64,000 nucleotides of DNA from the human T2T-CHM13v2.0 reference genome, Homo sapiens, in NCBI GenBank assembly GCA_009914755.4, contig CP086569.2:11904001-11968000 (forward strand). Reading direction: 5' to 3'. The notes below the pieces were generated by a model, which was not told the origin of the DNA, ran no database searches, and worked only from the letters and a program-made list of their open reading frames with translations. Both the position numbers and the translations under genes were made by a program. Within the stretch, counting starts at the first letter, position 1. Each line of letters begins with the position of its first letter. Below are positions 11,424 to 64,000 of the stretch, piece after piece.

Positions 11424-12776
11424 ATGGACAGGAATGTAATGGACTCCAATGGAATGGAATGGATCAAAATGAATTTGAACAGATTGGAATCGAACGGAAT
11501 GGAATGCAATGAAATGGAATGGACTCGATCAGAACGGACTGGAGAGGAATGTACACAAATGGAATGGAAACAAAAGGAATGGAATGAAATGGAATTGAAA
11601 GGAACGGAATCAAATGGAATGGAATGGAATGGATTGGAATAGAATGGATTCAAATAAAATAGAATCGATTGCAATGGTATTGAATGGAAGGGACTTGAAT
11701 GGAATGGAAAGCAATGGAAGATATTGGAATAGAATGGCATCGAATGAAATGGAATGGAACGGAATGGAACGGACCGGAATGGAATGGAATGGACTCAAAT
11801 GTAATGGACTCGAATGGAATCGACTGAAATATAATAGACTCGAAAGGAATGGCCTCGAGCGGAATTTATTTGAATAGAATGGAATCATATGGAATACAAT
11901 AGTAGGGAATGGAATCGAATGGAATGTAATCGAATGGAATGTAATCAAATGGAATGGAACGGAATTCAATATAATGGAGTAGAATGGAATGCATTGGAAA
12001 GGAGCAGAGTGGAATCGAGTGGATTGGAATCGAGTGGAATGGAATCAAAGGGATCGAAATCGAATTGAATGGACTTGAATGGAATTGAGTCGAAAGGAAT
12101 TGACTCGAAAGGAATGGACTGGAACAAAAAGGAATCAAATGGACAGGAATGGAATGGAATGGACTCGAATGGAATGGAGTCAAATGCAAACGCATCGAAT
12201 GGAATGGATTCAAATGGAATGCAATTGAATGGAATAGAAAGGAAGAGAATGGAATTGAGAGTAATGGAAAGATATCGATTGGAATGAAATGGAATGGAAA
12301 GGAATTGAATGGAATGGAATGGACTCGAAAGAAATGGATTGGAATGGAATGGTCTCCAAAGGAATGGACTGGAGTGGAATGGAATCGAATGGAAAGAAAA
12401 GAATGGAACGGAATGGAACGGAAAGGAATAGAATGTTATGGAATCCGATTGGACAGAATGGAATGGAATGCAGTTTCATGAAATGGAGTCGAATAGAGTG
12501 GCATCAAAAGGAATGGAATGGAGTGGACTCAAAAGGAATGGACTCGAAAGGAATGGAGTCGAACCAAATTGAATCAAATGGATTGGAGTCGAACAGAATG
12601 GAATGGAATGGAATGAAGTCGACTGGAGTAGAGAGGAATGAAAAGGAATAGAATGGAATGTAATCAAATGGATTGCAAGTGAATGGAATCAAAAATAATA
12701 GAAAGGAATGGAGTGTAAAGGGATGATATTGAATTAAATGGAATGGAATGGAATTTAATGGAATAGAGCCGAAGGA
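11424..12776 (+). repeat. 1.378-kb subunit copy c1 (1353 bp; ~25-bp internal deletion).
   Basis: Reads '...aaatggaatggaaacaaaaggaatggaatgaaatggaattgaaaggaacgg' where other copies have '...ggaaacgaatggaatggaatgaaatggaatggaatgcaatggaattgaaaggaacgg'. Shares 'aatcatatggaatacaatagtagggaatgg' with c3. Confidence 0.75.
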
Positions 12777-14154
12777 ATGGACAGGAATGTAATGGACTGT
12801 AATGGAATGGAATGGATCAAAATGGATTTGAACAGATTGGAATCGAACGGAATGAAATGCAATGAAATGGAATGGACTCGATCAGAAAGGACAGGAGAGG
12901 GATGTACACAAATGGAATGGAAACGAAAGGAATGGAATGAAATGGAATGGAATGCAATGTAATTGAAAGGAACGGAATCAAATTGAACGGAATGGAATGG
13001 AATGGAATGGATTGGAATAGAATGGATTCAAATAAAATAGAATCGATTGCAATGGTATTGAATGGAAAGGACTTGAATGGAATGGAAAGCAATGGAAGAT
13101 ATTGGAATCGAATGGCATCGAATGAAAGGGAATGGAACGGAATGGAACGGAGCGGAATGCAACGGAATGGACTCAAATGTAATGGACTCGAATGGAATCG
13201 ACTGAAATATAATAGACTCGAAAGGAATGGCCTCGAGCGGAATTTATTTGAATAGAATGGAATCAAATGGAATACAATAGTATGGAATGGAATCGAATGG
13301 AATGGAATCGAATGGAATGTAATCAAATGGAAGGGAACAGAATTCAATATAATTTAGTAGAATGGAATGCATTGGAAAGGAGCAGAGTGGAATCGAGTGG
13401 ATTGGAATCGAGTGGAATGGAATCAAAGGGAACGAAATCGAATTGAATGGACTTGAATGGAATTGAGTCGAAAGGAATTGACTCGAAAGGAATGGACTGG
13501 AACAAATAGGAATCAAATGGACAGGAATGGAATGGAATGGACTCGAATGGAATGGAGTCAAATGCAAACGCATCGAATGGAATGGATTCAAATGGAATGC
13601 AATTGAATGGAATAGAAAGGAAAAGAATGGAATTGAGAGTAATGGAAAGATATCGATTGGAATGAAATGGAATGGAAAGGAATTGATTGGAAAGGAAAGG
13701 ACTCGAAAGAAATGGGTTGGAATGGAATGGTTTCCAATGGAATGGACAGGAGTGGAATGGAATCGAATGGAATGAAAAGAATGGAACGGAATGGAACGGA
13801 AAGGAATAGAATGTTATGGAATCCGATTGGACAGAATGGAATGGAATGCAGTTTCATGAAATGGAGTCGAATAGAGTGGCATCAAAAGGAATGGAATGGA
13901 GTGGACTCAAAAGGAATGGACTCGAATGGAATGGAGTCGAACCAAATTGAATCAAATGGATTGGAGTCGAACAGAATGGAATGGAATGGAATGAAGTCGA
14001 CTGGAGTAGAGAGGAATGAAAAGGAATAGAATGGAATGTAATCAAATGGATTGCAAGTGAATGGAATCAAAAATAATAGAAAGGAATGGAGTGTAAAAGG
14101 ATGATATTTAATTATATGGAATGGAATGGAATTTAATGGAATGGAGTCGAAGGA
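12777..14154 (+). repeat. 1.378-kb subunit copy c2 (variant type beta; sister of c6).
   Basis: Shares with c6: 'cagaaaggacaggagagggatg', 'gcaatgtaattg', 'caaattgaacgg', 'gaaaggacttg', 'gaaagggaatgg'. Confidence 0.75.
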
Positions 14155-15527
14155 ATGGACAGGAATGTAATGGACTCCAATGGAATGGAATGGATCAAAA
14201 TGGACTTGAACAGATTGGAATCGAACGGAATGGAATGCAATGAAATAGAATGGACTCGATCAGAACGGACTGGAGAGGAATGTACACAAATGGAATGGAA
14301 ACGAATGGAATGGAATGAAATGGAATGGAAGGCAATGGAATTGAAAGGAACGGAATCAAATGGAATGGAATGGAATGGAATGGATTGGAATAGAATGGAT
14401 TCAAATAAAATAGAATCGATTGCAAAGGTATTGAATGGAAGGGACTTGAATGGAATGGAAAGCAATGGAAGATATTGGAATCGAATGGCATCGAATGAAA
14501 TGGAATGCAACGGAATGGAACGGACCCGAATGGAATGGAATGGACTCAAATGTAATGGACTCGAATGGAATCGACTGAAATATAATAGACTCGAAAGGAA
14601 TGGCCTCGAGCGGAATTTATTTGAAAAGAATGGAATCATATGGAATACAATAGTAGGGAATGGAATCGAATGGAATGGAATCGAATGGAATGCAATCAAA
14701 TGGAATGGAACGGAATTCAATGTAATGGAGTAGAATGGAATGCATTGGAAAGGAGCAGAGTGGAATCGAGTGGATTGGAATCGAGTGGAATGGAATCAAA
14801 GGGAACGAAATCGAATTGAATGGACTTGAATGGAATTGAGTCGAAAGGAATTGACTCGAAAGGAATGGACTGGAACAAAAAGGAATCAAATGGACAGGAA
14901 TGGAATGGAATGGACTCGAATGGAATGGAGTCAAATGCAAACGCATCGAATGGAATGGATTCAAATGGAATGCAATTGAATGGAATAGAAAGGAAGAGAA
15001 TGGAATTGAGAGTAATGGAAAGATATCGATTGGAATGAAATGGAATGGAAAGGAATTGAATGGAATGGAATGGACTCGAAAGAAATGGATTGGAATGGAA
15101 TGGTCTCCAATGGAATGGACTGGAGTGGAATGGAATCGAATGGAAAGAAAAGAATGGAACGGAATGGAGCGGAAAGGAATAGAATGTTATGGAATCCGAT
15201 TGGACAGAATGGAATGGAATGCAGTTTCATGAAATGGAGTCGAATAGAGTGGCATCAAAAGGAATGGAATGGAGTGGACTCAAAAGGAATGGACTCGAAA
15301 GGAATGGAGTTGAACCAAATTGAATCAAATGGATTGGAGTCGAACAGAATGGAATGGAATTGAATGAACTCGACTGGAGGGGAGAGGAATGAAAAGGAAT
15401 AGAATGGAATGTAATCAAATGGATTGCAAGTGAATGGAATCAAAAATAATAGAAAGGAATGGAGTGTAAAGGGATGATATTGAATTAAATGGAATGGAAT
15501 GGAATTTAATGGAATGGAGTCGAAGGA
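14155..15527 (+). repeat. 1.378-kb subunit copy c3 (variant type alpha; sister of c8).
   Basis: Shares with c8: 'caaaatggacttgaacag', 'gcaatgaaatagaatggactcg', 'ggaaggcaatggaattg'. Confidence 0.75.
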
Positions 15528-16905
15528 ATGGACAGGAATGTAATGGACTCCAATGGAATGGAATGGATCAAAATGGATTTGAACAGATTGGAATGGACCG
15601 GAATGGAATGCTATGAAATGGAATGGACTCGATCAGAACGGTCTGGAGAGGAATGTACATAAATGGAATGGAAACGAATGGAATGGAATGAAATGGAATG
15701 GAATGCAATGGAATTGAAAGGAACGGAATCAAATGGAACGGAATGGAATGGAATGGAATGGATTGGAATAGAATGGATTCAAATAAAATAGAATCGATTG
15801 CAATGGTATTGAATGGAAGGGACTTGAATGGAATGGAAAGCAATGGAAGATATTGGAATAGAATGGCATCGAATGAAATGGAATGGAACGGAATGGAACG
15901 GACCGGAATGGAATGGAATAGACTCAAATGTAATGGACTCGAATGGAATCGACTGAAATATAATAGACTCGAAAGGAATGGCCTCGAGCGGAATTTATTT
16001 GAATAGAATGGAATCAAATGGAATACAATAGTATGGAATGGAATCGAATGGAATGGAATCGAATGGAATGTAATCAAATGGAATGGAACAGAATTCAATA
16101 TAATGGAGTAGAATGGAATGCATTGGAAAGGAGCAGAGTGGAATCGAGTGGATTGGAATCGAGTGAAATGGAATCAAAGGGAACGAAATCGAATTGAATG
16201 GACTTGAATGGAATTGAGTCGAAAGGAATTGACTCGAAAGGAATGGACTGGAACAAAAAGGAATCAAATGGACAGGAATGGAATGGAATGGACTCGAATG
16301 GAATGGAGTCAAATGCAAACGCATCGAATGGAATGGATTCAAATGGAATGCAATTGAATGGAATAGAAAGGAAGAGAATGGAATTGAGAGTAATGGAAAG
16401 ATATCGATTGGAATGAAATGGAATGGAAAGGAATTGAATGGAAAGGAAAGGACTCGAAAGAAATGGGTTGGAATGGAATGGTCTCCAATGGAATGGACTG
16501 GAGTGGAATGGAATCGAATGGAATGAAAAGAATGGAACGGAATGGAACGTAAAGGAATAGAATGTTATGGAATCCGATTGGTCAGAATGGAATGGAATGC
16601 AGTTTCATGAAATGGAGTCGAATATAGTGGCATCAAAAGGAATGGAATGGAGTGGACTCAAAAGGAATGGACTCGAAAGGAATGGAGTCGAACCAAATTG
16701 AATCAAAGAGATTGGAGTCGAACAGAATGGAATGGAATGGAATGAACTCGACTGGAGTAGAGAGGAATGAAAAGGAATAGAATGGAATGTAATCAAATGG
16801 ATTGCAAGTGAATTGAATCAAAAATAATAGAAAGGAATGGAGTGTAAAAGGATGATATTTAATTAAATGGAATGGAAAGGAATTTAATGGAATGGAGTCG
16901 AAGGA
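15528..16905 (+). repeat. 1.378-kb subunit copy c4 (variant type gamma; sister of c7).
   Basis: Shares with c7: 'ttggaatggaccggaatggaatgctatgaaatggaatggactcgatcagaacggtctggagaggaatgtacataaatgg'. Confidence 0.75.
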
Positions 16906-18283
16906 ATGGACAGGAATGTAATGGACTCCAATGGAATGGAATGGATCAAAATGAATTTGAACAGATTGGAATCGAACGGAATGGAATGCAATGAAATGGA
17001 ATGGACTCGATCAGAACGGACTGGAGAGGAATGTACACAAATGGAATGGAAACGAATGTAATGGAATGAAATGGAATGGAATGCAATGGAATTGAAAGGA
17101 ACGGAATCAAATGGAATGGAATGGAATGGAATGGAATGGATTGGAATAGAATGGATTCAAATAAAATAGAATCGATTGCAATGGTATTGAATGGAAGGGA
17201 CTTGAATGGAATGGAAAGCAATGGAAGATATTGGAATCGAATGGCATCGAATGAAATGGAATGGAACGGAATAGAACGGACTGGAATGGAATGGAATGGA
17301 CTCAAATGTAATGGACTCGAATGGAATCGACTGAAATACAATAGACTCGAAAGGAATGGCCTCGAGCGGAATTTATTTGAATAGAATGGAATCAAATGGA
17401 ATACAATAGTATGGAATGGAATCGAATGGAATGGAATCGAATGGAATGTAATCAAATGGAATGGAACGGAATTCAATATAATGGAGTACAATGGAATGCA
17501 TTGGAAAGGAGCAGAGTGGAATCGAGTGGATTGCAATCGAGTGGAATGGAATCAAAGGGAATGAAATCGAATTGAATGGACTTGAATGGAATTGAGTCGA
17601 AAGGAATTGACTCGAAAGGAATGGACTGGAACAAAAAGGAATCAAATGGACAGGAATGGAATGGAATGGACTCGAATGGAATGGAGTCAAATGCAAACGC
17701 ATCGAATGGAATGGATTCAAATGGAGTGCAATTAAATGGAATAGAAAGGAAGAGAATGGAATTGAGAGTAATGGAAAGATATCGATTGGAATGAAATGGA
17801 ATGGAAAGGAATTGAATGGAAATGAATGGACTCGAAAGAAATGGATTGGAATGGAATGGTCTCCAATGGAATGGACTGGAGTGGAATGGAATCGAATGGA
17901 AAGAGTAGAATGGAACGGATTGGAACGGAAAGGAATAGAATGTTATGGAATCCGATTGGACAGAATGGAATGGAATGCAGTTTCATGAAATGGAGTCGAA
18001 TAGAGTGGCATCAAAAGGAATGGAATGGAGTGGACTCAAAAGGAATGGACTCGAATGGAATGGAGTCGAACCAAATTGAATCAAATGGATTGGAGTCGAA
18101 CAGAATGGAATGGAATGGAATGAAGTCGACTGGAGTAGAGAGGAATGAAAAGGAATAGAATGGAATGTAATCAAATGGATTGCAAGTGAATGGAATCAAA
18201 AATAATAGAAAGGAATGGAGTGTAAAGGGATGATATTGAATTAAATGGAATGGAATGGAATTTAATGGAATGGAGCCGAAGGA
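16906..18283 (+). repeat. 1.378-kb subunit copy c5.
   Basis: Marker at 16906 and 18284. Private variants (e.g. 'ggaattgaatggaaatgaatggactcg'). Confidence 0.7.
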
Positions 18284-19661
18284 ATGGACAGGAATGTAAT
18301 GGACTCTAATGGAATGCAATGGATCAAAATGGATTTGAACAGATTGGAATCGAACGGAATGGAATGCAATGAAATGGAATGGACTCGATCAGAAAGGACA
18401 GGAGAGGGATGTACACAAATGGAATGGAAACGAAAGGAATGGAATGAAATGGAATGGAATGCAATGTAATTGAAAGGAACGGAATCAAATTGAACGGAAT
18501 GGAATGGAATGGAATGGATTGGAATAGAATGGATTCAAATAAAATTGAATCGATTGCAATGGTATTGATTGGAAAGGACTTGAATGGAATGGAAAGCAAT
18601 GGAAGATATTGGAATCGAATGGCATCGAATGAAAGGGAATGGAACGGAATGGAATGGAGCGTAATGGATTGGAATGGACTCAAATGTAATGGACTCGAAT
18701 GGAATCGACTGAAATATAATAGACTCGAAAGGAATGGCCTCGAGCGGAATTTATTTGAATAGAATGGAATCAAATGGAATACAATAGTATGGAATGGAAT
18801 CAAATGGAATGGAATCGAATGGAATATAATCAAATGGAAGGGAACAGAATTCAATATAATTTAGTAGAATGGAATGCATTGGAAAGGAGCAGAGTGGAAT
18901 CGAGTGGATTGGAATCGAGTGGAATGGAATCAAAGGGAACGAAATCGAATTGAATGGACTTGAATGGAATTGAGTCGAAAGGAATTGACTCGAAAGGAAT
19001 GGACTGGAACAAAAAGGAATCAAATGGACAGGAATGGAATGGAATGGACTCGAATGGAATGGAGTCAAATGCAAACGCATCGAATGGAATGGATTCAAAT
19101 GGAATGCAATTGAATGGAATAGAAAGGAAGAGAATGGAATTGAGAGTAATGGAAAGATATCGATTGGAATGAAATGGAATGGAAAGGAATTGAATGGAAT
19201 GGAATGGACTCGACAGAAATGGATTGGAATGGAATGGTCTCCAATGGAATGGACTGGAGTGGAATGGAATCGAATGGAAAGAAAAGAATGGAATGGAATG
19301 TAGCGGAAAGGAATAGAATGTTATGGATTCCGATTGGACAGAATGGAATGGAATGCAGTTTCATGAAATGGAGTCGAATAGAGTGGCATCAAAAGGATTG
19401 GAATGGAGTGGACTCAAAAGGAATGGACTCGAAAGGAATGGAGTTGAACCAAATTGAATCAAATGGATTGGAGTTGAACAGAATGGAATGGAATTGAATG
19501 AACTCGACTGGAGTGGAGAGGAATGAAAAGGAATAGAATGGAATGTAATCAAATGGATTGCAAGTGAATGGAATCAAAAACAATAGAAAGGAATGGAGTG
19601 TAAAGGGATGATATTGAATTAAATGGAATGGAATGGAATTTAATGGAATGGAGTCGAAGGA
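18284..19661 (+). repeat. 1.378-kb subunit copy c6 (type beta; sister of c2).
   Basis: See c2. The 176-aa minus-strand ORF 18324..18854 is near-identical to 12817..13347. Confidence 0.75.
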
Positions 19662-21039
19662 ATGGACAGGAATGTAATGGACTCCAATGGAATGGAATGG
19701 ATCAAAATGGATTTGAACAGATTGGAATGGACCGGAATGGAATGCTATGAAATGGAATGGACTCGATCAGAACGGTCTGGAGAGGAATGTACATAAATGG
19801 AATGGAAACGAATGGAATGGAATGAAATGGAATGGAATGCAATGGAATTGAAAGGAACGGAATCAAATGGAACGGAATGGAATGGAATGGAATGGATTGG
19901 AATAGAATGGATTCAAATAAAATAGAATCGATTGCAATGGTATTGAATGGAAGGGACTTGAATGGAATGGAAAGCAATGGAAGATATTGGAATAGAATGG
20001 CATCGAATGAAATGGAATGGAACGGAATGGAACGGACCGGAATGGAATGGAATAGACTCAAATGTAATGGACTCGAATGGAATCGACTGAAATATAATAG
20101 ACTCGAAAGGAATGGCCTCGAGCGGAATTTATTTGAATAGAATGGAATCAAATGGAATACAATAGTATGGAATGGAATCGAATGGAATGGAATCGAATGG
20201 AATGTAATCAAATGGAATGGAACGGAATTCAATATAATGGAGTAGAATGGAATGCATTGGAAAGGAGCAGAGTGGAATCGAGTGGATTGGAATCGAGTGG
20301 AATGGAATCAAAGGGAACGAAATCGAATTGAATGGACTTGAATGGAATTGAGTCGAAAGGAATTGACTCGAAAGGAATGGACTGGAACAAAAACGAATCA
20401 AATGGACAGGAATGGAATGGAATGGACTCGAATGGAATGGAGTCAAATGCAAACGCATCGAATGGAATGGATTCAAATGGAATGCAATTGAACGGAATAG
20501 AAAGGAAGAGAATGGAATTGAGAGTAATGGAAAGATATCGATTGGAATGAAATGGAATGGAAAGGAATTGAATGGAAAGGAAAGGACTCGAAAGAAATGG
20601 GTTGGAATGGAATGGTTTCCAATGGAATGGACTGGAGTGGAGTGGAATCGAATGGAATGAAAAGAATGGAACGGAATGGAACGGAAAGGAATAGAATGTT
20701 ATGGAATCCGATAGGACAGAATGGAATGGAATGCAGTTTCATGAAATGGAGTCGAATAGAGTGGCATGAAAAGGAATGGAATGGAGTGGACTCAAAAGGA
20801 TTGGACTCGAAAGGAAAGAAGTCGAACCAAATTGAATCAAATGGATTGGAGTCGAACAGGATGGAATGGAATGGAATGAAGTCGACTGGAGTAGAGAGGA
20901 ATGAAAAGGAATAGAATGGAATGTAATCAAATGGATTGCAAGTGAATGGAATCAAAAATAATAGAAAGGAATGGAGTGTAAAAGGATGATATTTAATTAT
21001 ATGGAATGGAATGGAATTTAATGGAATGGAGTCGAAGGA
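19662..21039 (+). repeat. 1.378-kb subunit copy c7 (type gamma; sister of c4).
   Basis: See c4. The 176-aa ORF 19702..20232 is identical to 15568..16098. Confidence 0.75.
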
Positions 21040-22412
21040 ATGGACAGGAATGTAATGGACTCCAATGGAATGGAATGGATCAAAATGGACTTGAACAGAT
21101 TGGAATCGAACGGAATGGAATGCAATGAAATAGAATGGACTCGATCAGAACGGACTGGAGAGGAATGTACACAAATGGAATGGAAACGAATGGAATGGAA
21201 TGAAATGGAATGGAAGGCAATGGAATTGAAAGGAACGGAATCAAATGGAATGGAATGGAATGGAATGGATTGGAATAGAATGGATTCAAATAAAATAGAA
21301 TCGATTGCAATGTTATTGAATGGAAGGGACTTGAATGGAATGGAAAGCAATGGAAGATATTGGAATCGAATGGCATCGAATGAAATGGAATGGAACGGAA
21401 TGGAACGGACCCGAATGGAATGGAATGGACTCAAATGTAATGGACTCGAATGGAATCGACTGAAATATAATATACTCGAAAGGAATGGCCTCGAGCGGAA
21501 TTTATTTGAATAGAATTTAATCAAATGGAATACAATAGTATGGAATGGAATCGAATGGAATGGAATCGAATGGAATGGAATCAAATGGAATGGAACGGAA
21601 TTCAATATAATGGAGTAGAATGGAATGCATTGGAAAGGAGCAGAGTGGAATCGAGTGGATTGGAATCGAGTGGAATGGAATCAAAGGGAACGAAATCGAA
21701 TTGAATGGACTTGAATGGAATTGAGTCGAAAGGAATTGACTCGAAAGGAATGGACTGGAACAAAAAGGAATCAAATGGACAGGAATGGAATGGAATGGAC
21801 TCGAATGGAATGTAGTCAAATGCAAACGCATCGAATGGAATGGATTCAAATGGAATGCAATTGAATGGAATAGAAAGGAAGATAATGGAATTGCGAGTAA
21901 TGGAAAGATATCGATTGGAATGAAATGGAATGGAAAGGAATTGAATGGAAAGGAATGGACTCGAAAGAAATGGGTTGGAATGGAATGGTCTCCAATGGAA
22001 TGGACTGAAGTGGAATGGAATCGAATGGAATGAAAAGAATGGAACGGAATGGAACGGAAAGGAATAGAATGTTATGGAATCCGATTGGACAGAATGGAAT
22101 GGAATGCAGTTTCATGAAATGGAGTCAAATAGAGTGGCATCAAAAGGAATGGAATGGAGTGGACTCAAGAGGAATGGACTCGAAAGGAATGGAGGCGAAC
22201 CAAATTGAATCAAATGGATTGGAGTCGAACAGAATGGAATGGAATGGAATGAACTCGAGTGGAGTAGAGAGGAATGAAAAGGAATAGAATGGAATGTAAT
22301 CAAATGGATTGCAAGTGAATGGAATCAAAAATAATAGAAAGGAATGGAGTGTAAAGGGATGATATTGAATTAAATGGAATGGAACGGAATTTAATGGAAT
22401 GTAGTCGAAGGA
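21040..22412 (+). repeat. 1.378-kb subunit copy c8 (type alpha; sister of c3).
   Basis: See c3. The 195-aa ORF 21018..21605 is near-identical to 14133..14720. Confidence 0.75.
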
Positions 22413-23790
22413 ATGGACAGGAATGTAATGGACTCCAATGGAATGGAATAGATCAAAATGGATTTGAACAGATTGGAATCGAACGGAATGGAATGCAATG
22501 AAAAGGAATGGACTCGATCAGAACGGACTGGAGAGGAATGTACACAAATTGAATGGAAACGAATGGAATGGAATGAAATGGAATGGAATGCAATGGAATT
22601 GAAAGGAACGGAATCAAATGGAACGGAATGGAATGGAATGGAATGGATTGGAATAGAATGGATTCAAATAAAATAGAATCGATTGCAATGGTATTGAATG
22701 GAAGGGACTTGAATGGAATGGAAAGCTATGGAAGATATTGGAATCGAATGGCATCGAATGAAATGGAATGGAACGGAATGGAACGGACCGGAATGGAATG
22801 GAATGGACTCAAATGTAATGGACTCGAATGGAATCGACTGAAATATAATAGACTCGAAAGGAATGGCCTCGAGCGGAATTTATTTGAATAGAATGGAATC
22901 AAATGGAATACAATAGTATGGAATGGAATCGAATGGAATGGAATCGAATGGAATGTAATCAAATGGAATGGAACGGAATTCAATATAATGGAGTAGAATG
23001 GAATGCATTGGAAAGGAGCAGAGTGGAATCGAGTGGATTGGAATCGAGTGGAATGGAATCAAAGGGAACGAAATCGAATTGAATGGACTTGAATGGAATT
23101 GAGTCGAAAGGAATTGACTCGAAAGGAATGAACTGCAACAAAAAGGAATCAAATGGACAGGAATGGAATGGAATGGACTCGAATGGAATGGAGTCAAATG
23201 CAAACGCATCGAATGGAATGGATTCAAAGGGAATGCAATTGAATGGAATAGAAAGTAAGAGAATGGAATTGAGAGTAATGGAAAGATATCGATTGGAATG
23301 AAATTGAATGGAAAGTAATTGAATGGAAAGGAAAGGACTCGAAAGAAATGGGTTGGAATGGAATGGTCTCCAACGGAATGGACTGGAGTGGAATGGAATC
23401 GAATGGAATGAAAAGAATGGAACGGAATGGAACGGAAAAGAATAGAATGTTATGGAATCCGATTGGACAGAATGGAATGGAATGCAGTTTCATGAAATGG
23501 AGTCGAATAGAGTGGCATCAAAAGGAATGGAATGGAGTGGTCTCAAATCGAATGGACTCGAAAGGAATGGAGCCGAACCAAATTGAATCAAATGGATTGG
23601 AGTCGAACAGAATGGAATGGAATGGAATGAACTCGACTGGAGTAGAGAGGAATGAAAAGGAATAGAATGGAATGTAATCAAATGGATTGCAAGTGAATGG
23701 AATCAAAAATAATAGAAAGGAATGGAGTGTAAAGGGATGATATGGAATAAAATGGAATGGAATGGAATTTAATGGATTGGAGTCGAAGGA
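22413..23790 (+). repeat. 1.378-kb subunit copy c9. Last copy before the array returns to the 5.5-kb HOR.
   Basis: Marker at 22413 and 23791. Downstream of ~23875 the sequence follows the 5.5-kb HOR ('gcaatggaatggaatggactcgaatggagaagagacaaatgg') instead of the 1.378-kb unit ('gcaatgaaatggaatggactcgatcagaacggactggagagg'). Confidence 0.7.
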
Positions 23791-26700
23791 ATGGACAGGA
23801 ATGTAATGGACTCCAATGGAATGGAATGGATCAAAATGGATTTGAACAGATTGGAATCGAACGGAATGGAATGCAATGGAATGGAATGGACTCGAATGGA
23901 GAAGAGACAAATGGAATGGAAACGAATTCAATGGAATTGAAAAGAATAGAATGGAATGGTGTGTAATGGTAAGATACTAAATGGAATGGAATTGAATGGA
24001 ATGTAGTGGAATGGACCCAAATGTAGTGCACTCGAAAGGAATATACTCAAATAGAATGGAATCGAAAGGAAAGGTCTCAAATGGAATTTATTCAATACAA
24101 TGGAATCGAATGGAATGCAATAGAATGGAAAGGAATCGAATGTAATGGAATCAAATAGAATGGACCAGAATGGAATGGACTGCCATAGAACGGACTGCAG
24201 TGTAATGGATTGAATTCTAATTCATTCAAATGGAATGGAATTGAATGGAATGGAATCCAATGGAATGGATAGGATTGTACTGGAATGGAATAGCATGGAA
24301 TGCAACGGAGTGGAATGGAGTTGAATGAATTGGAATGGAATCGATTGGAATGGAATCAAATGGAATGGACGGGAATGGAATGGACTGGAATAGAACAGAC
24401 TCGAATATAATGGATTGCAATGTAATTGATTCAAATGGAATGGAATCGAATGGAATGTAATAAAATTGAAGGGATTGGAGTTCAATGCAATGGAATAGAA
24501 TGGAATGCAAAGGAAAGGAAAGGCACGGAGTGAAATCGAGTGTAATGGAATCGAATGGAATGAAATCGAATGGAATGGACACAAAAGAAATGGACGTGGG
24601 ACAAAACGGAATCGAACTGATTGGAATCGAATGGAACGGAATGGAATGGAATGGTCTCCATTGGATGGGAGTAGAACGGATTGGAATGAAATGGAATGGA
24701 AAGGAATAGAATGGAATGGAAAGGAATGGAAGGTAACGGAAAGATATCGAACGGATTGGAAAGGAATGGAATGGACGCTAATGGAATGGAATGGAATTCA
24801 ACAGAAACGAATGGAATGGACTGGAGTGAAATGGAGTCGAATGTAATTGACTGGAGAAGAATGAACTCGAAAGGAATGGACTCGAATAGAATGTACTGGA
24901 ATGGATTGTACTCGAATGGAGTGGAAAGGAATAAAATGGATTCCACCAGATTGGAATGAAATAGAATGTAATGGAATGGAATGGAATGCAATGGAATGGC
25001 TCGAATGGAATGGAGTCGAATGCAATGGAAGAGAAAGGAAAGGAATTGAATGGAATTGAAAGTAAGAGAAGTAAAAGGAGTGCAAAGGAAAGAAATGGAA
25101 TGGAATGGATCGAAAAGAAATAGAATGGAATGGACAGGAATGGAATGGAATAGAATGGAATAGACTGGCGTGCAATGAAAACGAATGGAATGGAAACGAA
25201 TGGAATGGAATGGAAAGGAATGGAGTAGAATAAATACTATGGAATGGAATGGAATGGAATGGAATGGAATGGAATGGAGGCGAAAGGAAAAGAATGGATT
25301 GGAATGTCACCGAATGGAAAGATATGGAATGGAAAGGAATGGATAGGAATGGAATGGAATAGAAAGGAACGGAAAGGTAAAGAATGGAATGGAAGCCGAC
25401 AGAATGGAATGCAATGTAATGGAGTCGAATGGAAAATAATCGAGTAGAATGATATCTAATGGAATGGAATTTAATGGAATGGAATGGAATGGAATGGACT
25501 CGAATGGCATGTACTCAAATGGATTAGAATAGAATGGAATGGAACTAAACGTAATGAACTCGAATGGAATGGACACAAATAGAATGGAAGAGAAAGAAAT
25601 GGTATTGAATGGAATTTATTCGAATAGAATGGAATTCAATGGAATGCAACAGTGTGGCATGGAATCAAATGGAATGGAATCGAATGGAATGGACCCGAAT
25701 GGAATGGACTCACATAGAACAGTCTCGAATGTAATGGATTACAATGTATTAGATTCGAAAGGACTGAAATCGAATGGAATGTAATCAAATAGAACGGAAT
25801 TGAATGCATGGAATGGCATAGAAAGTAATGCAATGGAATGGAATAGACTGGAATGGAATGGAATCGGATTGAATGTAATGAAATGTAATGGAAGGAATGC
25901 CATGGAATGGAATGGAATGGAATACAATGGGACGGTGTATAATGGAGTGCAATGGATTTCAGAGGAATGTAGCCAAAGGAATGAAATAGAATGGAATTCA
26001 ATATAATGGAATGGCATCCAATGGCAAGGAATGGAGTGGACTCCAATGGAAACGACATGAAAGGAATATAATATAATGGAATGGCATTGAAAGAAATGGA
26101 ATGCAATGGAGTTAAAAGGTAAAATATCGAATGGAAAAGAATTGAATGGACTCGAATGGAATATAATGGAATGGAATGGACTCGAATGGAATGTACTAGT
26201 GTTGAATGGAATCGAATGGAATGGAAAACAATGGAAAGGAAAGGAAGGGAATTGAAAGGAAAGGAATAGAATGGAATGGAATCGGATGGAACAGAATTGA
26301 ATGGAATGGAAACTAAAGGAATAGAATAGAAAGGAATGGCATTGAATGGAATAGAAATGAATGGAATCAGATGGAACAGAAAGGAATGGAATAGAATCGA
26401 ATGGAATGGCATCGAATGGATTGGAATGGAATGGAATGGAATGGAATGGAAAAGAATGGAATGGAGTCAAATGGAATGTACTCAAATGGAATAGAATAGA
26501 ATGGAATGGAAGTAAATATAATGGACTCGAGTGGAATGGATTGGAATAAATTGGAATTGAATGTATTGGATTTGAATGGAAAGGAATGGAATGGAATGGA
26601 ATGGAATGGAATGGATTCGAATGGAATGGAACGAATTGGAATGTAATTGAATGGAGTCGAAAACAGTAGAAAGAAAAGAAGTTTAATCGAATGATATCGA

Positions 26701-29347
26701 ATGGAATTGAATGGAATGTACGTGAAAGGAATGGACAGGAATGGAATGGAATGACATGTAATGGAATCAAAAGGAATGGAATCGAATGAAATGGAATTGA
26801 ATGGAATAGAAAGGAATAGAATGGAATGGAGTTTAATGGAAAGATATTAAAAGTAATGGAATGGAATTGAGTGGACACAAGGGGAATGGACTGGAATGGA
26901 AAGGACTCGAATGAAATGGACCACATTAGAATGGACTCGAATGGAACGGATTGGTGTGGAATGGTCTCGAATGGATGGGAAACGAATGGAATGGAAAAGA
27001 ATAGAATGGAATGTAATCAAATGGAACGAAATGGAATGGAATGGATTCGACTGGAACAGAATTGAATGGAGTGGAATTGAATGGAATGGAAGGCAATCGA
27101 ATGGAAAGGACACGAATGGAATAGAAAGAAATGAAATGGCATAGAATGGAATGGAATGGAATGGAATGGAATGGAATGGCATGGAATGGAATGGAATGGA
27201 ATGGAATGGAATTGAATGAAATGGATTGGAATGGGATGGGCCCAAAAGTAATGGACTAAAATAAAAGGGACTCAAATAGAATGAATTGTAAAGAAACGGT
27301 CTCGAATGTAATTTATTCGAATAGAATGATATTGAATGTTACGCAATAGTATGGAATGGTATCGAATAGAATGGAATGGAATGGAACGGAATGGAGTGCA
27401 TTTGAACGGACTCAAATGCAATAAATTGCACTATAATTGATTCAAATGGAATGGAATCGAATAGAATGTAAACAAATGGAATGGAAGGCAATGCAATGGA
27501 AAGGAATCGAATGAAATGGCATAAATGGGATGGAATCGAATGGAAAGGACGCGAATATAATGGAGTGTCAAGGAAAGGTGTCGAATCGAATTTATTCCAA
27601 TAGAATGGAATCGAATGGAATGCAATACTATTGAATCAAATCGAATGGAATGGAATTGAATGGAATGGACAGGAATGGAATGAACTGGAAGTGAATGGAC
27701 AAGAACATAATATATTGCAATGTAATTTATTCAAATGGAATGGAATGCAATAGAATGGAATGGACGCGATTGCAATGGACTGGAGTGGAATGGACTGAAA
27801 TGGAATTTAAACGAATATAATGCAATGGAACGGAAAGCAAAGGAATCTACCGGAATGGAATCGAACGGAACAGAAAGGAATGGAATGGAATGGAGTGGAA
27901 TGGACTCGAATGGAATGTATTCGAATGTAATGGACCGGAAAGGAATGGAATCCAAAGGAATGGAATTGAATGGAATGAAAAGGAATAGAAAGGAATAGAG
28001 TGTAATTGAATGATATCGAATGGAAGGGAATGGAATGAAGTCGAATGGAATGCACTGGAATGGAATGGACTCAATCAGAACGGACTGGAGAGGAATGTAC
28101 ACAAATGGAATGGAAACGAATGGAATGGAATGAAATGGAATGGAATGCAATGGAATTGAAAGGAACGGAATCAAAAGGAATGGAATGGAATGGATTGGAA
28201 TAGAATGGATTCAAATAAAATAGAATCGATTGGAATGGTATTGAATGGAAGGGACTTGAATGGAATGGAAAGCAATGGAAGATATTGGAATCGAATGGCA
28301 TCGAATGAAATGTAATGGAACGGAATGGAACGGACCCGAATGGAATGGAATGGACTCAAATGTAATGGACTCGAATGGAATCGAATGAAATATAATAGAC
28401 TCGAAAGGAATGGCCTCGAGCGGGATTTATTTGAATAGAATGGAATCAAATGGAATGCAATAGTATGGAATGGAATCGAATGGAATGGAATCGAATGGAA
28501 TGTAATCAAATGGAATGGAACGGAATTCAATATAATGGAGTAGAATGGAATGCATTGGAAAGGAGCAGAGTGGAATCGAGTGGATTGGAATCGAGTGGAA
28601 TGGAATCAAAGGGAACGAAATCGAATTGAATGGACTTGAATGGAATTGAGTCGAAAGGAATTGACTCGAAAGGAATGGACTGGAACAAAAAGGAATCAAA
28701 TGGACAGGAATGGAATGGAATGGACTCGAATGGAATGGAGTCAAATGCAAACGCATCGAATGGAATGGATTCAAATGGAATGCAATTGAATGGAATAGAA
28801 AGGAAGAGAATGTAATTGAGAGTAATGGAAAGATATGGATTGGAATGAAATGGAATGGAAAGGAATTGAATGGAAAGGAATGGACTCGAAAGAAATGGAT
28901 TGGAATGGAATGGTCTCCAATGGAATGGACTGGAGTGGAATGGAATCGAATGGAATGAAAAGAATGGAACGGAATGGAACGGAAAGGAATAGAATGTTAT
29001 GGAATCCGATTGGACAGAATGGAATGGAAAGGAATGGAGTTTCATAAAATGGAGTCGAATAGAGTGGCATCAAAAGGAATGGAATGGAATGGAGTGGACT
29101 CAAAAGGAATGGACTCGAAGGGAATGGAGTCGAAGCAAATTGAATCAAATGGATTGGAGTCGAACAGAATGGAATGGAATGGAATGAACTCGCCTGGATT
29201 AGAGAGGAATGTAAAGGAATAGAATGGAATGTAATCAAATGGATTGCAAGTGAATGGAATCAAAAATAATAGAAAGGAATGGAGTGTAAAGGGATGATAT
29301 GGAGTAAAATGGAATGGAATGGAATTTAATGGAATGGAGTCGAAGGA
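23791..29347 (+). repeat. 5.5-kb HOR copy U3 (5557 bp). Divergent copy immediately downstream of the first 1.378-kb array.
   Basis: Marker at 23791 and 29348. Landmark 'gaattctaattcattc' at 24212-24227. Carries many private variants relative to U4-U7. Confidence 0.8.
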
Positions 29348-32300
29348 ATGGACAGGAATGTAATGGACTCCAATGCAATGGAATGGATCAAAATGGATTT
29401 GAACAGATTGGAATCGAACGGAATGGAATGCAATGGAATGGAATGGACTCGAATGGAGAAGAGACAAATGGAATGGAAACGAATTCAATGGAATTGAAAA
29501 GAATAGAATGGAATGGCGTGTAATGGTAAGATACTAAATGGAATGGAATTGAATGGAATGTAGTGGAATGGACCCAAATGTAATGCACTCGAATGGAATA
29601 TACTCAAATAGAATGGAATCGAAAGGAAAGGTCTCAAATGGAATTTATTCAATACAATGGAATCGAATGGAATGCAATAGAATGGAAAGGAATCGAATGT
29701 AATGGAATCAAATAGAATGGAACAGAATGGAATGGACTGCCATAGAACGGACTGCAGTGTAATGGATTGAATTCTAATTCATTCAAATGGAATGGAATTG
29801 AATGGAATGGAATCCAATGGAATGGATAGGATTGTACTGGAATGGAATAGCATGGAATGCAACGGAGTGGAATGGAGTTGAATGAAGTGGAATGGAATCG
29901 ATTGGAATGGAATCAAATGGAATGGACGGGAATGGAATGGACTGGAAGAGAACAGACTCGAATATAATGGATTGCAATGTAATTGATTCAAATGGAATGG
30001 AATCGAATGGAATGTAATAAAATTGAAGGGATTGGAGTTCAATGCAATGGAATAGAATGGAATGCAAAGGAAAAGAAAGGCACGGAGTGAAATCGAGTGT
30101 AATGGAATCGAATGGAATGAAATCGAATGGAATGGACTCAAAAGAAATGGACGAGGGACAAAACGGAATCGAACTGATTGGAATCGAATGGAACGCAATG
30201 GAATGCAATGGACTCCATTGGATGGGAGTAGAACGGATTGGAATGAAATGGAATGGAAAGGAATAGAATGGAATGGAAAGGAATGGAAGGTAACTGAAAG
30301 ATATCGAACGGATTGGAAAGGAATGGAATGGACGCTAATGGAATGGAATGGAATTCAACAGAAACGAATGGAATGGACTGGAGTGAAATGGAGTCGAATG
30401 TAATTGACTGGAGAGGAATGGACTCGAAAGGAATGGACTCGAATAGAATGGACTGGAATGGATTGTACTCGAATGGAGTGGAAAGGAATAAAATGGATTC
30501 CACCAGATTGGAATGGAACAGAATGTAATGGAATGGAATGGAATGCAATGGAATGGCTCGAATGGAAGGGAGTCGAATGCAATGGAAGGGAAAGGAAAGG
30601 AATTGAATGGAATTGAAAGTAATAGAATTAAAAGGAGTGCAAAGGAAAGATATGGAATGGAATGGATCGAAAAGAAATAGAATGGAATGGACAGGAATGG
30701 AATGGAATAGAATGGAATAGACTGGCGTGCAATTAAAACGAATGGAATGGAAACGAATGGAATGGAATGGAAAGGAATGGAGTAGAATAAATACTATGGA
30801 ATGGAATGGAATGGAATGGAATGGAATGGAATGGAGGCGAAAGGAAAACAATGGAGTGGAATGTCACCGAATGGAATGATATGGAATGGAAAGGAATGGA
30901 TACGAATGGAATGGAATAGAAAGGAACGGAAAGGTAAAGAATGGAATGGAATCGGACAGAATGGAATGTAATGTAATGGAGTCGAATGGAAAATAATCGA
31001 GTAGAATGATATCGAATGGAATGGAATTTTTGGAATGGAATGGAATGGAATGGACTCGAATGGCATGTACTCAAATGGATTAGAATAGAATGGAATGGAA
31101 CTAAACGTAATGAACTCGAATGAATGGACACAAATAGAATGGAAGAGAAAGAAATGGTATTGAACGGATTTTATTCGAATAGAATGGAATTCAATGGAAT
31201 GCAACAGTGTGGCATGGAATCAAATGGAATGGAATCGAATGGAATGGACCCGAGTGGAATGGACTCACATAGAACAGCCTCGAATGTAATGGATGACAAT
31301 GTATTAGATTCGAAAGGACTGAAATCGAATGGAATGTAATCAAATAGAACGGAATTGAATGCATGGAATGGCATAGAAAGTAATGCAATGGAATGGAATA
31401 GACTGGAAAGGAATGGAATCGGATGGAATGTAATGAAATGTAATGGAAGGAATGCTATGGAATGGAATGGAATGGAATACAATGGGACAGTGTATAATGG
31501 AGTGCAATGGATTTAAGTGGAATATAGTCAAAAGGAATGAAATAGAATGGAATTCAATATAATGGAATGGCATCCAATGGCAAGGAATGGAGCGGACTCC
31601 AATGGAAACGACATGAAAGGAATATAGTATAATGGAATGGCATTGAACGAAATGGAATGCAATGGAGTTAAAAGGTAAAATATCGAATGGAAAAGAATTG
31701 AATGGACTCGAATGGAATATAATGGAATGGAATGGACTCGAATGGAATGTACTAGAGTTGAATGGAATCGAATGGAATGGAAAACAATGGAAAGGAAAGG
31801 AAGGGAATTGAAAGGAAAGGAATAGAATGGAATGGAATCGGATGGAACAGAATTGAATGGAATGGAAACTAAAGGAATAGAATAGAAAGGAATGGCATTG
31901 AATGGAATAGAAATGAATGGAATCAGATGGAACAGAAAGGAATGGAATAGAATCGAATGGAATGGCATCGAATGGATTGGAATGGAATGTAATGGAATGG
32001 AATAGAAAGGAATGGAATGGACTCAAATGGAATGTACTCAAATGGAATAGAATAGAATGGAATGGAAGTAAATATAATGGACTCGAGTGGAATGGATTGG
32101 AATAAATTGGAATTGAATATATTGGATTTGAATGGAAAGGAATGGAATGGAATGGAATGGAATGGATTCGAATGGAATGGAACGAATTGGAATGTAATTG
32201 AATGGAGTCGAAAACAGTAGAAAGAAAAGAAGTTTAATCAAATGATATCGAATGGAATTGAATGGAATGTACGTGAATGGAATGGACTGGAATGGAATGG

Positions 32301-57004: not shown

Positions 57005-58366
57005 ATGGACAGGAATGTAATGGATTCCAATGGAATGGAATGGATCAAAATGGATTTGAACAGATTGGAATCAAACGGAATGGAATGCAATGAAATGGAA
57101 TGGACTCGATCAGAACGGACTGGAGAGGAATGTACACAAATGGAATGGAAACGAATGGAATGGAATGAAATGGAATGGAATGCAATGGAATTGAAAGGAA
57201 CGGAATCAAATGGAATGGAATGGATTGGAATAGAATGGATTCAAATAAAATAGAATCGATTGCAATGGTATTGAATGGAAGGGACTTGAATGGAATGGAA
57301 AGCAATGGAAGATATTGGAATCGAATGGCATCGAATGAAATGGAATGGAACGGAATGGAACGGACCCGAATGGATGGAATGGACTCAAATGTAATGGACT
57401 CGAATGGAATCGACTGAAATATAATAGACTCGAAAGGAATGGCCTCGAGCGGAATTTATTTGAATAGAATGGAATCAAATGGAATACAATAGTATGGAAT
57501 GGAATCGAAAGGAATGGAATCGAATGGAATGTAATCAAATGGAATGGAACAGAATTCAATATAATGGAGTAGAATGGAATGCATTGGAAAGGAGCAGAGT
57601 GGAATCGAGTGTATTGGAATCGACTGGAATGGAATCAAAGGGAACAAAATCAAATTGAATTGACTTGAATGGAATTGAGTCGAAAGGAATTGACTCGAAA
57701 GGAATGGACTGGAACAAAAAGGAATCAAATGGACAGGAATGGAATGGAATGGACTCGAATGGAATGGAGTCAAATGAAAACGCATCGAATGGAATGGATT
57801 CAAATGGAATGCAATTGAATGGAACAGAAAGGAAGAGAATGGAATTGAGAGTAATGCAAAGATATCGATTGGAATGAAATGGAATGGAAAGGAATTGAAT
57901 GGAAAGGAAAGGACTCGAAAGAAATGGATTGGAATGGAATGGTCTCCAATGGAATGGACTGGAGTGGAATGGAATCGAATGGAAAGAAAAGAATGGAACG
58001 GAATGGAATGGAAAGGAATAGAATGTTATGGAATCCGATTGGACAGAATGGAATGGAATGCAGTTTCATGAAAAAGAGTCGAATAGAGTGGCATCAATAG
58101 GAATGGAATGGAGTGGACTCAAAAGTAATGGACTCGAAAGGAATCGAGTCGAACCAAATTGAGTCAAATGCATTGGAGTCGAACAGAATGGAATGGAATG
58201 GAATGAACTCGACTGGAGTAGAGAGGAATGAAAAGGAATAGAATGGAATGTAATCAAATGGATTGCAAGTGAATGGAATCAAAAATAATAGAAAGGAATG
58301 GAGTGTAAAGGGATGATATTGAATTAAATGGAATGGAATGGAATTTAATGGAATGGAGTCGAAGGA
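57005..58366 (+). repeat. 1.378-kb subunit copy d1 (1362 bp; two small pentamer-scale deletions).
   Basis: 'caaatggaatggaatggattgg' has 2 GGAAT where other copies have 4. 'cggacccgaatggatggaatggactc' lacks 5 bp. Confidence 0.7.
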
Positions 58367-63862: not shown

Positions 63863-64000
63863 ATGGACAGGAATGTAATGGACTCCAATGGAATGGAATG
63901 GATCAAAATGGATTTGAACAGATTGGAATCGAACGGAATGGAATGCAATGAAATGGAATGGACTCGATCAGAACGGACTGGAGAGGAATGTACACAAATG
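63863..64000 (+). repeat. Partial 1.378-kb subunit copy d6, truncated by the window end.
   Basis: Begins with the marker ATGGACAGGAATGTAATGGACTCCAATGG and continues as the other copies do. Confidence 0.65.

What the first reader, a model, noticed from the sequence alone, without database searches (positions are those of the whole stretch)
23700..23900. Return junction from the 1.378-kb array to the 5.5-kb HOR (junction 2), same phase as junction 1
Copy c9 ends at 23790. The next unit starts with the same ~85 bp and then follows the 5.5-kb HOR ('...gcaatggaatggaatggactcgaatggagaagagacaaatggaatggaaacgaattcaatggaattgaaaagaat'). Both junctions fall within the same ~90-bp segment of the subunit. 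This is consistent with homologous, in-register unequal exchange and not with an insertion. Junction 3 (57005-57100) repeats the pattern of junction 1.
Basis: seen in the sequence. Interest (0 to 1): 0.5.

Follow-up and report, generated by a model that had tools for sequence, protein, structure and literature searches.

The report
Right edge of nested satellite sub-array
This is the right-hand edge of a block where a 1.37-kb piece of a 5.5-kb human-satellite-III repeat unit was copied in tandem ten times; the edge is real, but it is the ordinary outcome of tandem duplication and unequal exchange in satellite DNA.

Summary
The 64-kb window is all (GGAAT)n-derived satellite, probably human HSat3A3. 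It has a ~5.5-kb repeat unit, and an internal 1.37-kb segment "U" of that unit is amplified in tandem at 10160-23895 and again at 55746 to beyond 64000.

The 1.37-kb periodicity ends at 23895/23896. This is the same unit phase as the first joints of both sub-arrays (11527/8 and 57108/9).

The interpretation needs correcting. Position 23895/6 is not a breakpoint: the sequence there is collinear with every 5.5-kb unit. "Same phase at both ends" follows automatically from tandem duplication of an internal segment, so it does not show exchange at that spot.

The only novel joint is GGACTCG|ATCAGAAC, present 9 times in array 1 and 6 times in array 2. It lies in a 32-bp block shared by two sites 1.37 kb apart in the unit, of which the last 19 bp are exact. 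The founding event was therefore out of register with the 5.5-kb unit.

The real trace of homologous exchange is elsewhere. The last unit is a hybrid, array-type up to 23655 and 5.5-kb-unit type from 23744. Insertion is excluded.

This is a textbook satellite process and of low interest.

The parts
10160..23895 (+). Sub-array 1: ten tandem copies of the 1.37-kb segment U (1353-1379 bp each). Units start at 10160, 11528, 12881, 14259, 15632, 17010, 18388, 19766, 21144 and 22517. The first unit belongs to the 5.5-kb unit H1 on its left, and the last unit continues into H2 on its right.
   Evidence: k-mer phase map and motif positions; unit alignment with 1.7-4.2% pairwise divergence among the ten units.
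11497..11528 (+). The same joint recurs at 12880/1, 14258/9, 15631/2, 17009/10, 18387/8, 19765/6, 21143/4 and 22516/7.
   Evidence: After the joint, 11528-11592 matches the a-site 10160-10224 at 63/65 but the normal continuation of the 5.5-kb unit at only 28/65.
10129..10160 (+). a-site of the 5.5-kb unit (left end of U) in H1: GAATGGAATGCACTGGAATGGAATGGACTCAA followed by TCAGAACGG. This is the partner of the b-site in the founding exchange.
   Evidence: In H0 (4576-4607) and in 10 of 11 metagenome-derived copies the block ends CTCGA, which makes its last 19 bp identical to the b-site.
22517..23895 (+). Last (tenth) U unit, a hybrid. It carries array-type diagnostic bases from 22617 to 23655 and 5.5-kb-unit-type bases at 23744, 23749 and 23879.
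   Evidence: Diagnostic-site table and coordinate map.
23656..23743 (+). Interval that contains the actual homologous exchange or conversion point between array-type and 5.5-kb-unit-type sequence at this edge.
   Evidence: Last array-type site is 23655 (A; the 5.5-kb units have T). First unit-type site is 23744 (G; the array has T)..
23864..23895 (+). b-site block at the exit (junction 2 proper): GAATGGAATGCAATGGAATGGAATGGACTCGA, followed at 23896 by ATGGAGAAGAGAC. It is identical to the b-site of H2 (29421-29452); the other 5.5-kb units carry the same GGACTCGA motif at this phase. The 1.37-kb periodicity ends here, but there is no novel joint.
23896..29452 (+). 5.5-kb unit H2 (5557 bp), collinear continuation after the array. 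It is followed by H3-H7 up to 57108.
23711..23734 (-). Copy of the 24-mer listed as specific for subfamily HSat3A3 (CTTTACACTCCATTCCTTTCTATT on the minus strand). It occurs in 19 of the 24 complete or partial U copies in the window.
   Evidence: 24-mer list in Table 1 of PMC4022460; counts and positions.
55746..64000 (+). Sub-array 2, cut by the window end. Units start at 55746 (inside H7), 57109, 58471, 59849, 61221, 62594 and 63967. It has the same b->a joint (junction 3 at 57078-57109) and the same array-specific variants as sub-array 1.

Best explanation
The window is a nested tandem repeat array of human satellite III, probably the Y-chromosomal subfamily HSat3A3. Its unit is about 5.5 kb.

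Step 1 (founding event). Once, site b (the end of segment U) was joined to site a (the start of U, 1.37 kb upstream in the same unit). The join lies inside a short block the two sites happen to share, GAATGGAATGCA[A/C]TGGAATGGAATGGACTCGA, with the crossover in its last 19 bp. This produced a U-U duplication carrying the novel joint GGACTCG|ATCAGAAC. The event was either a misaligned sister-chromatid or intrachromatid exchange, or replication slippage. It was out of register with the 5.5-kb unit.

Step 2 (growth and spread). In-register unequal exchange between U copies, now guided by 1.37 kb of homology, raised the copy number to ten. It spread array-specific variants across the array, and larger exchanges in register with the 5.5-kb unit placed a second block carrying the same joint 46 kb away.

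Step 3 (the edge examined here). The 'return junction' at 23895/6 is the untouched right end of the amplified segment, where the last U runs on into the rest of its 5.5-kb unit. The last U is a recombinant: its first ~1140 bp are array-type and its last ~150 bp are unit-type, with the switch at 23656-23743. This is what crossover or gene conversion between an array unit and a unit-embedded U leaves behind.

Status of the steps: the anatomy, the single joint, the shared block and the hybrid edge units are shown. The kind of enzymatic event (crossover, conversion or slippage) and the order of events are inferred.
For: - Phase map: the only discontinuity relative to the 5.5-kb unit is b->a, 9 times in array 1 and 6 times in array 2.
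- The exit at 23895/6 is collinear with the 5.5-kb unit: 64/65 and 494/500 identity to H2.
- Shared 32-bp block at a and b. The joint keeps the b-type A at the single mismatch and switches to a-type sequence right after CTCGA. The a-site ends CTCGA in H0 and in 10 of 11 independent human contigs.
- Array-specific derived states at 23 alignment columns of about 15 variants are shared by arrays 1 and 2, including a 5-bp deletion and the G->A inside the joint block. This indicates a single origin.
- Edge units are hybrids. H1's U is unit-type to 10262 and array-type from 10319. H7's U is unit-type to 56057 and array-type from 56139/56704. The last unit is array-type to 23655 and unit-type from 23744.
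- Exits in other human contigs mostly switch later, after the 23749-equivalent site, so exchange points differ between exits.
- Ongoing exchange is visible nearby: 32128-41632 is 99.93% identical to 43198-52702, and H7 is a mosaic.
- Units differ by multiples of 5 bp in length and by 1.2-4.2% in sequence, so they are old, real copies.
- Unequal exchange is the explanation given for Y satellite structure in the T2T-Y paper (10.1101/2022.12.01.518724).
Against: - Nothing in one haplotype distinguishes crossover from gene conversion or replication template switching.
- The hybrid call for the last unit rests on three unit-type sites (23744, 23749, 23879) after a run of array-type sites.
- The 19-bp exact identity assumes the founding unit's a-site carried G, as in H0 and most other copies, and not the A seen in H1-H7 of this window.
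- Assignment to human chrY rests on one published subfamily 24-mer and on matches to human-associated metagenome contigs, not on a genome alignment.
- Those metagenome contigs are short-read assemblies that collapse repeats, so they confirm joints but not copy numbers.
Confidence: 0.8

Rival explanations
1. Junction 2 is itself a crossover point: an in-register unequal exchange within the ~90-bp segment 23791-23895 joined the 1.378-kb array back to the 5.5-kb repeat, mirroring junction 1.
For: The periodicity ends in that segment, at the same phase as junctions 1 and 3. One diagnostic site inside it (23879) is already 5.5-kb-unit type.
Against: The sequence across 23895/6 is the normal sequence of every 5.5-kb unit, so there is no joint to explain. 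Identical phase at both ends is forced by the geometry of any tandem duplication. The unit-type states begin at 23744, upstream of the segment, so the exchange lies at 23656-23743.
Confidence: 0.12
2. Circle-mediated amplification. Recombination between the a and b blocks excised a 1.37-kb circle whose junction is exactly b->a. Rolling-circle replication produced a concatemer, which reintegrated by homologous recombination into a U segment.
For: The b->a joint is what a circle formed from U would carry. Reintegration by homology would give the same collinear edges and hybrid edge units as observed.
Against: There is no positive evidence. Units in the array differ by 1.7-4.2% and form mosaics with 2-, 3- and 4-unit offsets. 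That is compatible with stepwise exchange and not with one burst of identical copies, although age could have erased a burst.
Confidence: 0.07
3. Insertion or transposition of a pre-formed foreign 1.378-kb array into the 5.5-kb repeat.
For: None beyond the abrupt change of period.
Against: U is the host unit's own segment (2.3-4.3% from unit-embedded copies in H2-H6). Both edges are collinear with the unit, there is no duplication or loss of flanking sequence, and the edge units share unit-lineage variants on their outer sides.
Confidence: 0.01
4. Assembly artefact: a mis-join or a false expansion of a repeat in the source assembly.
For: Satellite arrays are prone to such errors, and copy number could not be checked here.
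Against: The ten units are all different from one another. The same b->a joint and the same exit into the 5.5-kb unit occur in 22 independently assembled contigs from human-associated metagenomes.
Confidence: 0.04

Closest known systems
Human satellite III (HSat3) nested tandem repeats, subfamily HSat3A3 (reported as almost entirely Y-chromosomal)
   Same: It is a diverged (CATTC)n/(GGAAT)n pentamer satellite organised in multi-kb repeat units. It carries the published HSat3A3-specific 24-mer and none of the ten other HSat3 subfamily 24-mers. It matches human DNA in human gut and skin metagenome assemblies at 94-99% where collinear.
   Different: Nothing different in kind. I found no text in the held library describing a 5.5-kb unit with embedded 1.37-kb sub-arrays for this subfamily. 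The T2T-Y periodicity plot gives such numbers only in a figure I cannot read.
Higher-order-repeat variants of alpha satellite generated by unequal crossing-over (classical Smith-type model; established knowledge)
   Same: Structural variants of a long repeat unit arise by misaligned homologous exchange. They then expand locally and leave hybrid units at the edges and less homogenised array borders.
   Different: Alpha-satellite units consist of discrete 171-bp monomers, so misalignment is in register with the monomer. Here there are no discrete monomers and no 1.37-kb sub-periodicity. The founding misalignment used only a 19-32-bp chance identity.
DYZ1/DYZ2 block structure of Yq12
   Same: It is Y-linked satellite with nested units and recent multi-unit duplications, attributed to unequal exchange, with sister-chromatid exchange detected there (10.1101/2022.12.01.518724).
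   Different: The subfamily differs: the HSat3A6 24-mer is absent. The unit size differs (3.6 kb against 5.5 kb), and there is no interspersed HSat1B.

Membership tests
HSat3 (human satellite III) | Derived from a (CATTC)n / (GGAAT)n pentamer repeat | tested here: met
   TRF finds one array covering 2-63962 with consensus GGAATGGAAT. There are 3840 exact GGAAT on the plus strand against 19 on the minus strand, and 30% of bases lie in exact GGAAT pentamers.
HSat3 (human satellite III) | Not HSat2, which I recall (own knowledge) as having a diverged 23/26-bp CATTCGATTCCATTCGATGAT-type unit | tested here: met
   That HSat2-type motif has 0 hits on either strand.
HSat3A3 subfamily | Presence of the subfamily-specific 24-mer CTTTACACTCCATTCCTTTCTATT (Altemose 2014, Table 1) | tested here: met
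   19 exact hits on the minus strand, in 19 of the 24 complete or partial U copies. There are 0 hits for the ten other HSat3 subfamily 24-mers. Only one 24-mer per subfamily was available, so this is a lead-grade test.
HSat3A3 subfamily | Location on the human Y chromosome | not testable with these tools
   No human genome collection is available. Indirect support: exact 36-mer matches occur only in human-associated metagenome contigs and none in 185,579 prokaryotic genomes.
Nested tandem repeat (NTR) as defined by Altemose et al. 2021 | Multi-kb repeat unit built from a diverged simple repeat, without discrete equal-length monomers | tested here: met
   Units are 5520-5592 bp. No internal sub-periodicity stands out above the 5/15-bp level. 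Definition in 10.1101/2021.07.12.452052.
Tandem amplification by unequal homologous exchange | One and the same novel joint in all copies, with both outer edges collinear with the parent unit | tested here: met
   15 joints share the GGACTCG|ATCAGAA core (the bases after it vary in five units), and the collinear edges are at 10160 and 23895/6.
Tandem amplification by unequal homologous exchange | Sequence identity between the two sites that were joined | tested here: met
   A 32-bp block with one mismatch, of which the last 19 bp are exact. Such blocks are common: there are 1149 position pairs sharing a 19-mer within one unit.
Tandem amplification by unequal homologous exchange | Recombinant (hybrid) units at array borders | tested here: met
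   All three borders visible in the window are hybrids, with switch points at different unit phases.
Tandem amplification by unequal homologous exchange | Copy-number polymorphism of the block between haplotypes | not testable with these tools
   Only collapsed short-read contigs of other individuals were reachable.

The most novel reading that the evidence does not exclude
The 1.37-kb unit may be a young repeat form that is replacing the 5.5-kb unit inside a Y-chromosomal HSat3A3 array. It would spread from one founding joint to many blocks (two within 64 kb here). The differing exchange points at each block edge would then record individual sister-chromatid exchange or conversion events. This would make the locus a readable recorder of satellite turnover on a non-recombining chromosome across the Y phylogeny. 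A more exotic variant is that the founding amplification went through a 1.37-kb extrachromosomal circle.
Probability: 0.3. Interest if true: 0.3.

Novelty: new member of a known kind. Interest (0 to 1): 0.15.

Why it matters
The finding matters little beyond satellite biology. It is a clean, nucleotide-resolved example of three things. A new shorter repeat period is born inside a longer satellite unit from a 19-32-bp chance identity. It then grows by in-register exchange. Its array borders keep hybrid units that mark individual exchange points.

If the locus is the Y-linked HSat3A3 array, block copy numbers and edge switch points could serve as markers of sister-chromatid exchange along the Y phylogeny. 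For the scan itself, the lesson is methodological: 'both junctions at the same phase' is a geometric consequence of tandem duplication and not evidence for a mechanism.

Tried and rejected
1. Ancient 1.37-kb sub-periodicity in the 5.5-kb unit, which would make sites a and b truly homologous and the founding exchange 'in register'. Ungapped self-identity, smoothed 11-mer offset counts and 559 global alignments of U against all non-overlapping phases showed no peak at the in-register positions. Scores there were 495, 531 and 528, against a median of 505, sd 18 and maximum 555. Rejected. One search was unusable because the segments overlapped U itself.

2. Positional one-to-one correspondence between units of array 1 and array 2, as expected from a recent duplication of a whole block. 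Array-2 units are closer to each other (1.2-2.3%) than to any array-1 unit (1.8-3.8%), and the unit-embedded first units H1 and H7 differ by 2.5%. No such correspondence is visible.

3. Known structured RNAs. An Rfam scan of the whole window at gathering thresholds gave no hits.

4. Scan of 185,579 prokaryotic genomes for the joint, as a test for contamination copies. It gave no hits.

5. Literature on the unit sizes of HSat3A3/DYZ17. The Altemose 2022 review is not held. The T2T-Y and 43-Y papers give array sizes and names but no unit periodicities in their text.

6. Protein, phage, plasmid and E. coli tools were not used, because they have no bearing on a primate satellite.
Full report
**What the window is**

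Tandem Repeats Finder reports a single array over 2-63962 with consensus GGAATGGAAT. GC is 0.36-0.39 throughout, with a constant strong excess of G over C. Exact GGAAT occurs 3840 times on the plus strand and 19 times on the minus strand.

Of the eleven subfamily-specific 24-mers that Altemose et al. 2014 list for HSat3 (PMC4022460, Table 1), only the HSat3A3 one is present. It occurs 19 times on the minus strand, in 19 of the 24 complete or partial U copies, including 23711-23734 inside the finding. HSat3A3 is described as almost entirely Y-chromosomal (10.1101/2021.07.12.452052).

An exact 36-mer spanning the joint or a-site was found in 22 contigs of the metagenome collection; the three whose record names state a source are human gut or human skin, and the rest carry accession-only names. 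It was found in none of 185,579 prokaryotic genomes. Those contigs are 94-99% identical to the window wherever they are collinear. The source is therefore very probably human HSat3, likely the Y-linked subfamily. The chromosome itself could not be tested.

**Large-scale anatomy**

Nearest-repeat offsets, a phase map against one reference unit and motif positions give the following layout.

| Coordinates | Element |
|---|---|
| 1-378 | Partial U |
| 379-5970 | H0 (5.5-kb unit) |
| 5971-11528 | H1 (5.5-kb unit) |
| to 23895 | Nine further copies of U |
| 23896-57108 | H2-H7 (5520-5557 bp each) |
| 57109 to window end | At least five further U copies |

U is the last 1.37 kb of the unit as I phase it, running from site a to site b.

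Counting the copy inside H1, sub-array 1 has ten units. They start at 10160, 11528, 12881, 14259, 15632, 17010, 18388, 19766, 21144 and 22517, and are 1353-1379 bp long. They differ in length by multiples of 5 bp and in sequence by 1.7-4.2%.

**Check of the observation**

- 23791-23895 equals the preceding array unit at 102/105 and the 5.5-kb unit at 104/105.
- From 23896 the sequence follows the 5.5-kb unit (64/65, then 494/500).
- It no longer follows the array (42/65, which is background).

The first joints of both arrays (11527/8 and 57108/9) diverge at exactly the same column.

**What the junction is**

Relative to the 5.5-kb unit, the only discontinuity anywhere in the window is b->a...GGACTCG|ATCAGAACGG.... 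It is present nine times in array 1 and six times in array 2.

At 23895/6 there is no discontinuity. GAATGGAATGCAATGGAATGGAATGGACTCGA|ATGGAGAAGAGAC is the normal sequence of the 5.5-kb unit: the block is identical in H2 and the fork motif recurs at this phase in every unit.

A tandem amplification of an internal segment necessarily reads a..b|a..b|...|a..b,b+1. Read from the left, the first departure from the parent unit is at b. Read onward, the last departure from the new period is also at b. 'Both junctions at the same phase' is therefore a geometric consequence and does not test how the edge arose.

What the collinearity does exclude is insertion of a foreign array.

**The founding joint**

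The sites compare as follows.

| Site | Sequence |
|---|---|
| a-site in H1 (other units share at least its last 24 bp) | GAATGGAATGCACTGGAATGGAATGGACTC[A/G]A\|TCAGAACGG |
| b-site | GAATGGAATGCAATGGAATGGAATGGACTCGA\|ATGGAGAAG |

H1-H7 of this window have A at the variable position of the a-site. H0 (4576-4607) and 10 of 11 unit-context copies in the independent human contigs have G, so G is the likely founder state.

The two sites then share 32 bp with one mismatch, and the last 19 bp are identical. The joint keeps the b-type base at the mismatch and turns a-type immediately after the block. The exchange therefore lies within those 19 bp.

Such identities are common in this satellite. The 19-mer occurs four times in one unit, and 1149 position pairs within a unit share some 19-mer.

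I tested whether a and b might be homologous positions of an older 1.37-kb period. They are not. In-register segments score 495-531, against a median of 505, sd 18 and maximum 555 for all phases. The founding event was therefore out of register with the 5.5-kb unit and was mediated by a short chance identity. Whether it was a crossover or a replication slip cannot be told from sequence.

**Evidence for later homologous exchange**

Twenty-three alignment columns (about 15 separate variants) separate the internal array units of both arrays from the unit-embedded copies H0 and H2-H6. Comparison with the divergent copy H0 shows that some array states are derived: G->C at columns 175 and 979, a 5-bp deletion, T->A at 1154, A->T at 1248, and G->A at 1378 inside the joint block. 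Others are derived in the unit lineage, for example G at column 1243.

Arrays 1 and 2 share all the array states and the joint, so they have one origin.

The three visible border units are hybrids:

| Border unit | 5.5-kb-unit type | Array type |
|---|---|---|
| H1's U (left edge of array 1) | up to 10262 | from 10319 |
| H7's U (left edge of array 2) | up to 56057 | from 56139 (certainly from 56704) |
| Last unit of array 1 | from 23744 (23744 G, 23749 A, 23879 G) | up to 23655 |

From column 1243 to its end, the last unit is identical to H3-H6 except for one private base.

The true array-to-unit switch at this edge therefore lies in 23656-23743, 150-240 bp upstream of the end of the periodicity. 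Because 23744 G is a derived unit-lineage state, this end segment has been homogenised with neighbouring 5.5-kb units, by crossover or conversion inside U.

In the independent human contigs, most exits stay array-type through the 23749-equivalent site and become unit-type only at the last site. Two others switch earlier. Different exits thus carry different exchange points, as expected from repeated in-register exchange.

**Other signs of ongoing exchange**

- 32128-41632 is 99.93% identical (7 mismatches) to 43198-52702, a very recent two-unit duplication.
- H3-H6 differ by 0.02-0.58%, whereas H1, H2 and H7 are 1.5-2.4% away and H0 is about 4% away.
- The first 1.2 kb of H7 is identical to H4 and H6, and the rest is not.
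- Within array 1, units resemble each other at offsets of 2, 3 and 4 units.

**Comparison with what is known**

This is the classical picture of satellite evolution by unequal exchange. [quoted passage not shown] The multi-kb units of HSat2/3 are called nested tandem repeats, a better term here than 'HOR' because there are no discrete monomers.

I found no text in the held library describing a 5.5-kb unit with embedded 1.37-kb arrays for HSat3A3. The relevant review is not held, and the periodicity values of the T2T-Y figure are not in its legend.

**Verdict**

- The feature is real and correctly located.
- The exclusion of insertion is right.
- The phase argument is not evidence for a mechanism.
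- The founding joint was out of register with the 5.5-kb unit.
- The real exchange point at this edge is at 23656-23743.

It is a new, well-resolved instance of a well-known process, and interest is low.

Noticed in passing
window 32128-41632 and 43198-52702: A 9.5-kb stretch is repeated at an offset of 11,070 bp (two 5.5-kb units) with 99.93% identity (7 mismatches). This is a very recent two-unit duplication inside the otherwise 2-4% divergent array.
   Followed up: partly
window 379-5970 (H0) compared with H1-H7: The leftmost complete 5.5-kb unit is much more divergent (about 4% overall and up to 6.9% in its last 600 columns before U). It keeps several ancestral states, including the G form of the a-site at 4576-4607.
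   Followed up: partly
window 51583-57108 (H7): H7 is a mosaic unit. Its first ~1.2 kb is identical to H4 and H6 (0.0-0.2% divergence), and the remainder is 1-3% divergent from every other unit. This marks the right-hand end of the recent duplication.
   Followed up: partly
window 10160-23895: Array 1 has an internal superstructure. Units resemble each other at offsets of 2751/2756, 4129/4134 and 5507 bp (2, 3 and 4 units). Examples are u1~u5~u8 (1.7-1.8%), u2~u4~u6 (1.9-2.0%) and u3~u7 (2.8%). This suggests multi-unit duplications within the sub-array.
   Followed up: no
L002 5171-7197; also L009, L014, L017, L020: Human-derived metagenome contigs carry about 2 kb of poorly matching GGAAT satellite between phases 2841 and 2889 of the 5.5-kb unit. 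This is a longer unit variant (about 7.5 kb) that is absent from all eight units of the window.
   Followed up: no
L001-L022 (metagenome contigs): Kilobase-scale human satellite III contigs sit in public metagenome assemblies (the three named ones are human gut and skin). This is host DNA assembled as if it were microbial, and it echoes the contamination issue raised in the T2T-Y paper.
   Followed up: no
window 10259-10262, 22617-22629 and equivalent positions in all U units (alignment columns 101-113): A short (GGAAT)n tract about 100 bp into U varies in pentamer number between units (0-, 5-, 10- and 15-bp differences). This slippage hotspot accounts for most of the unit length differences.
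   Followed up: partly
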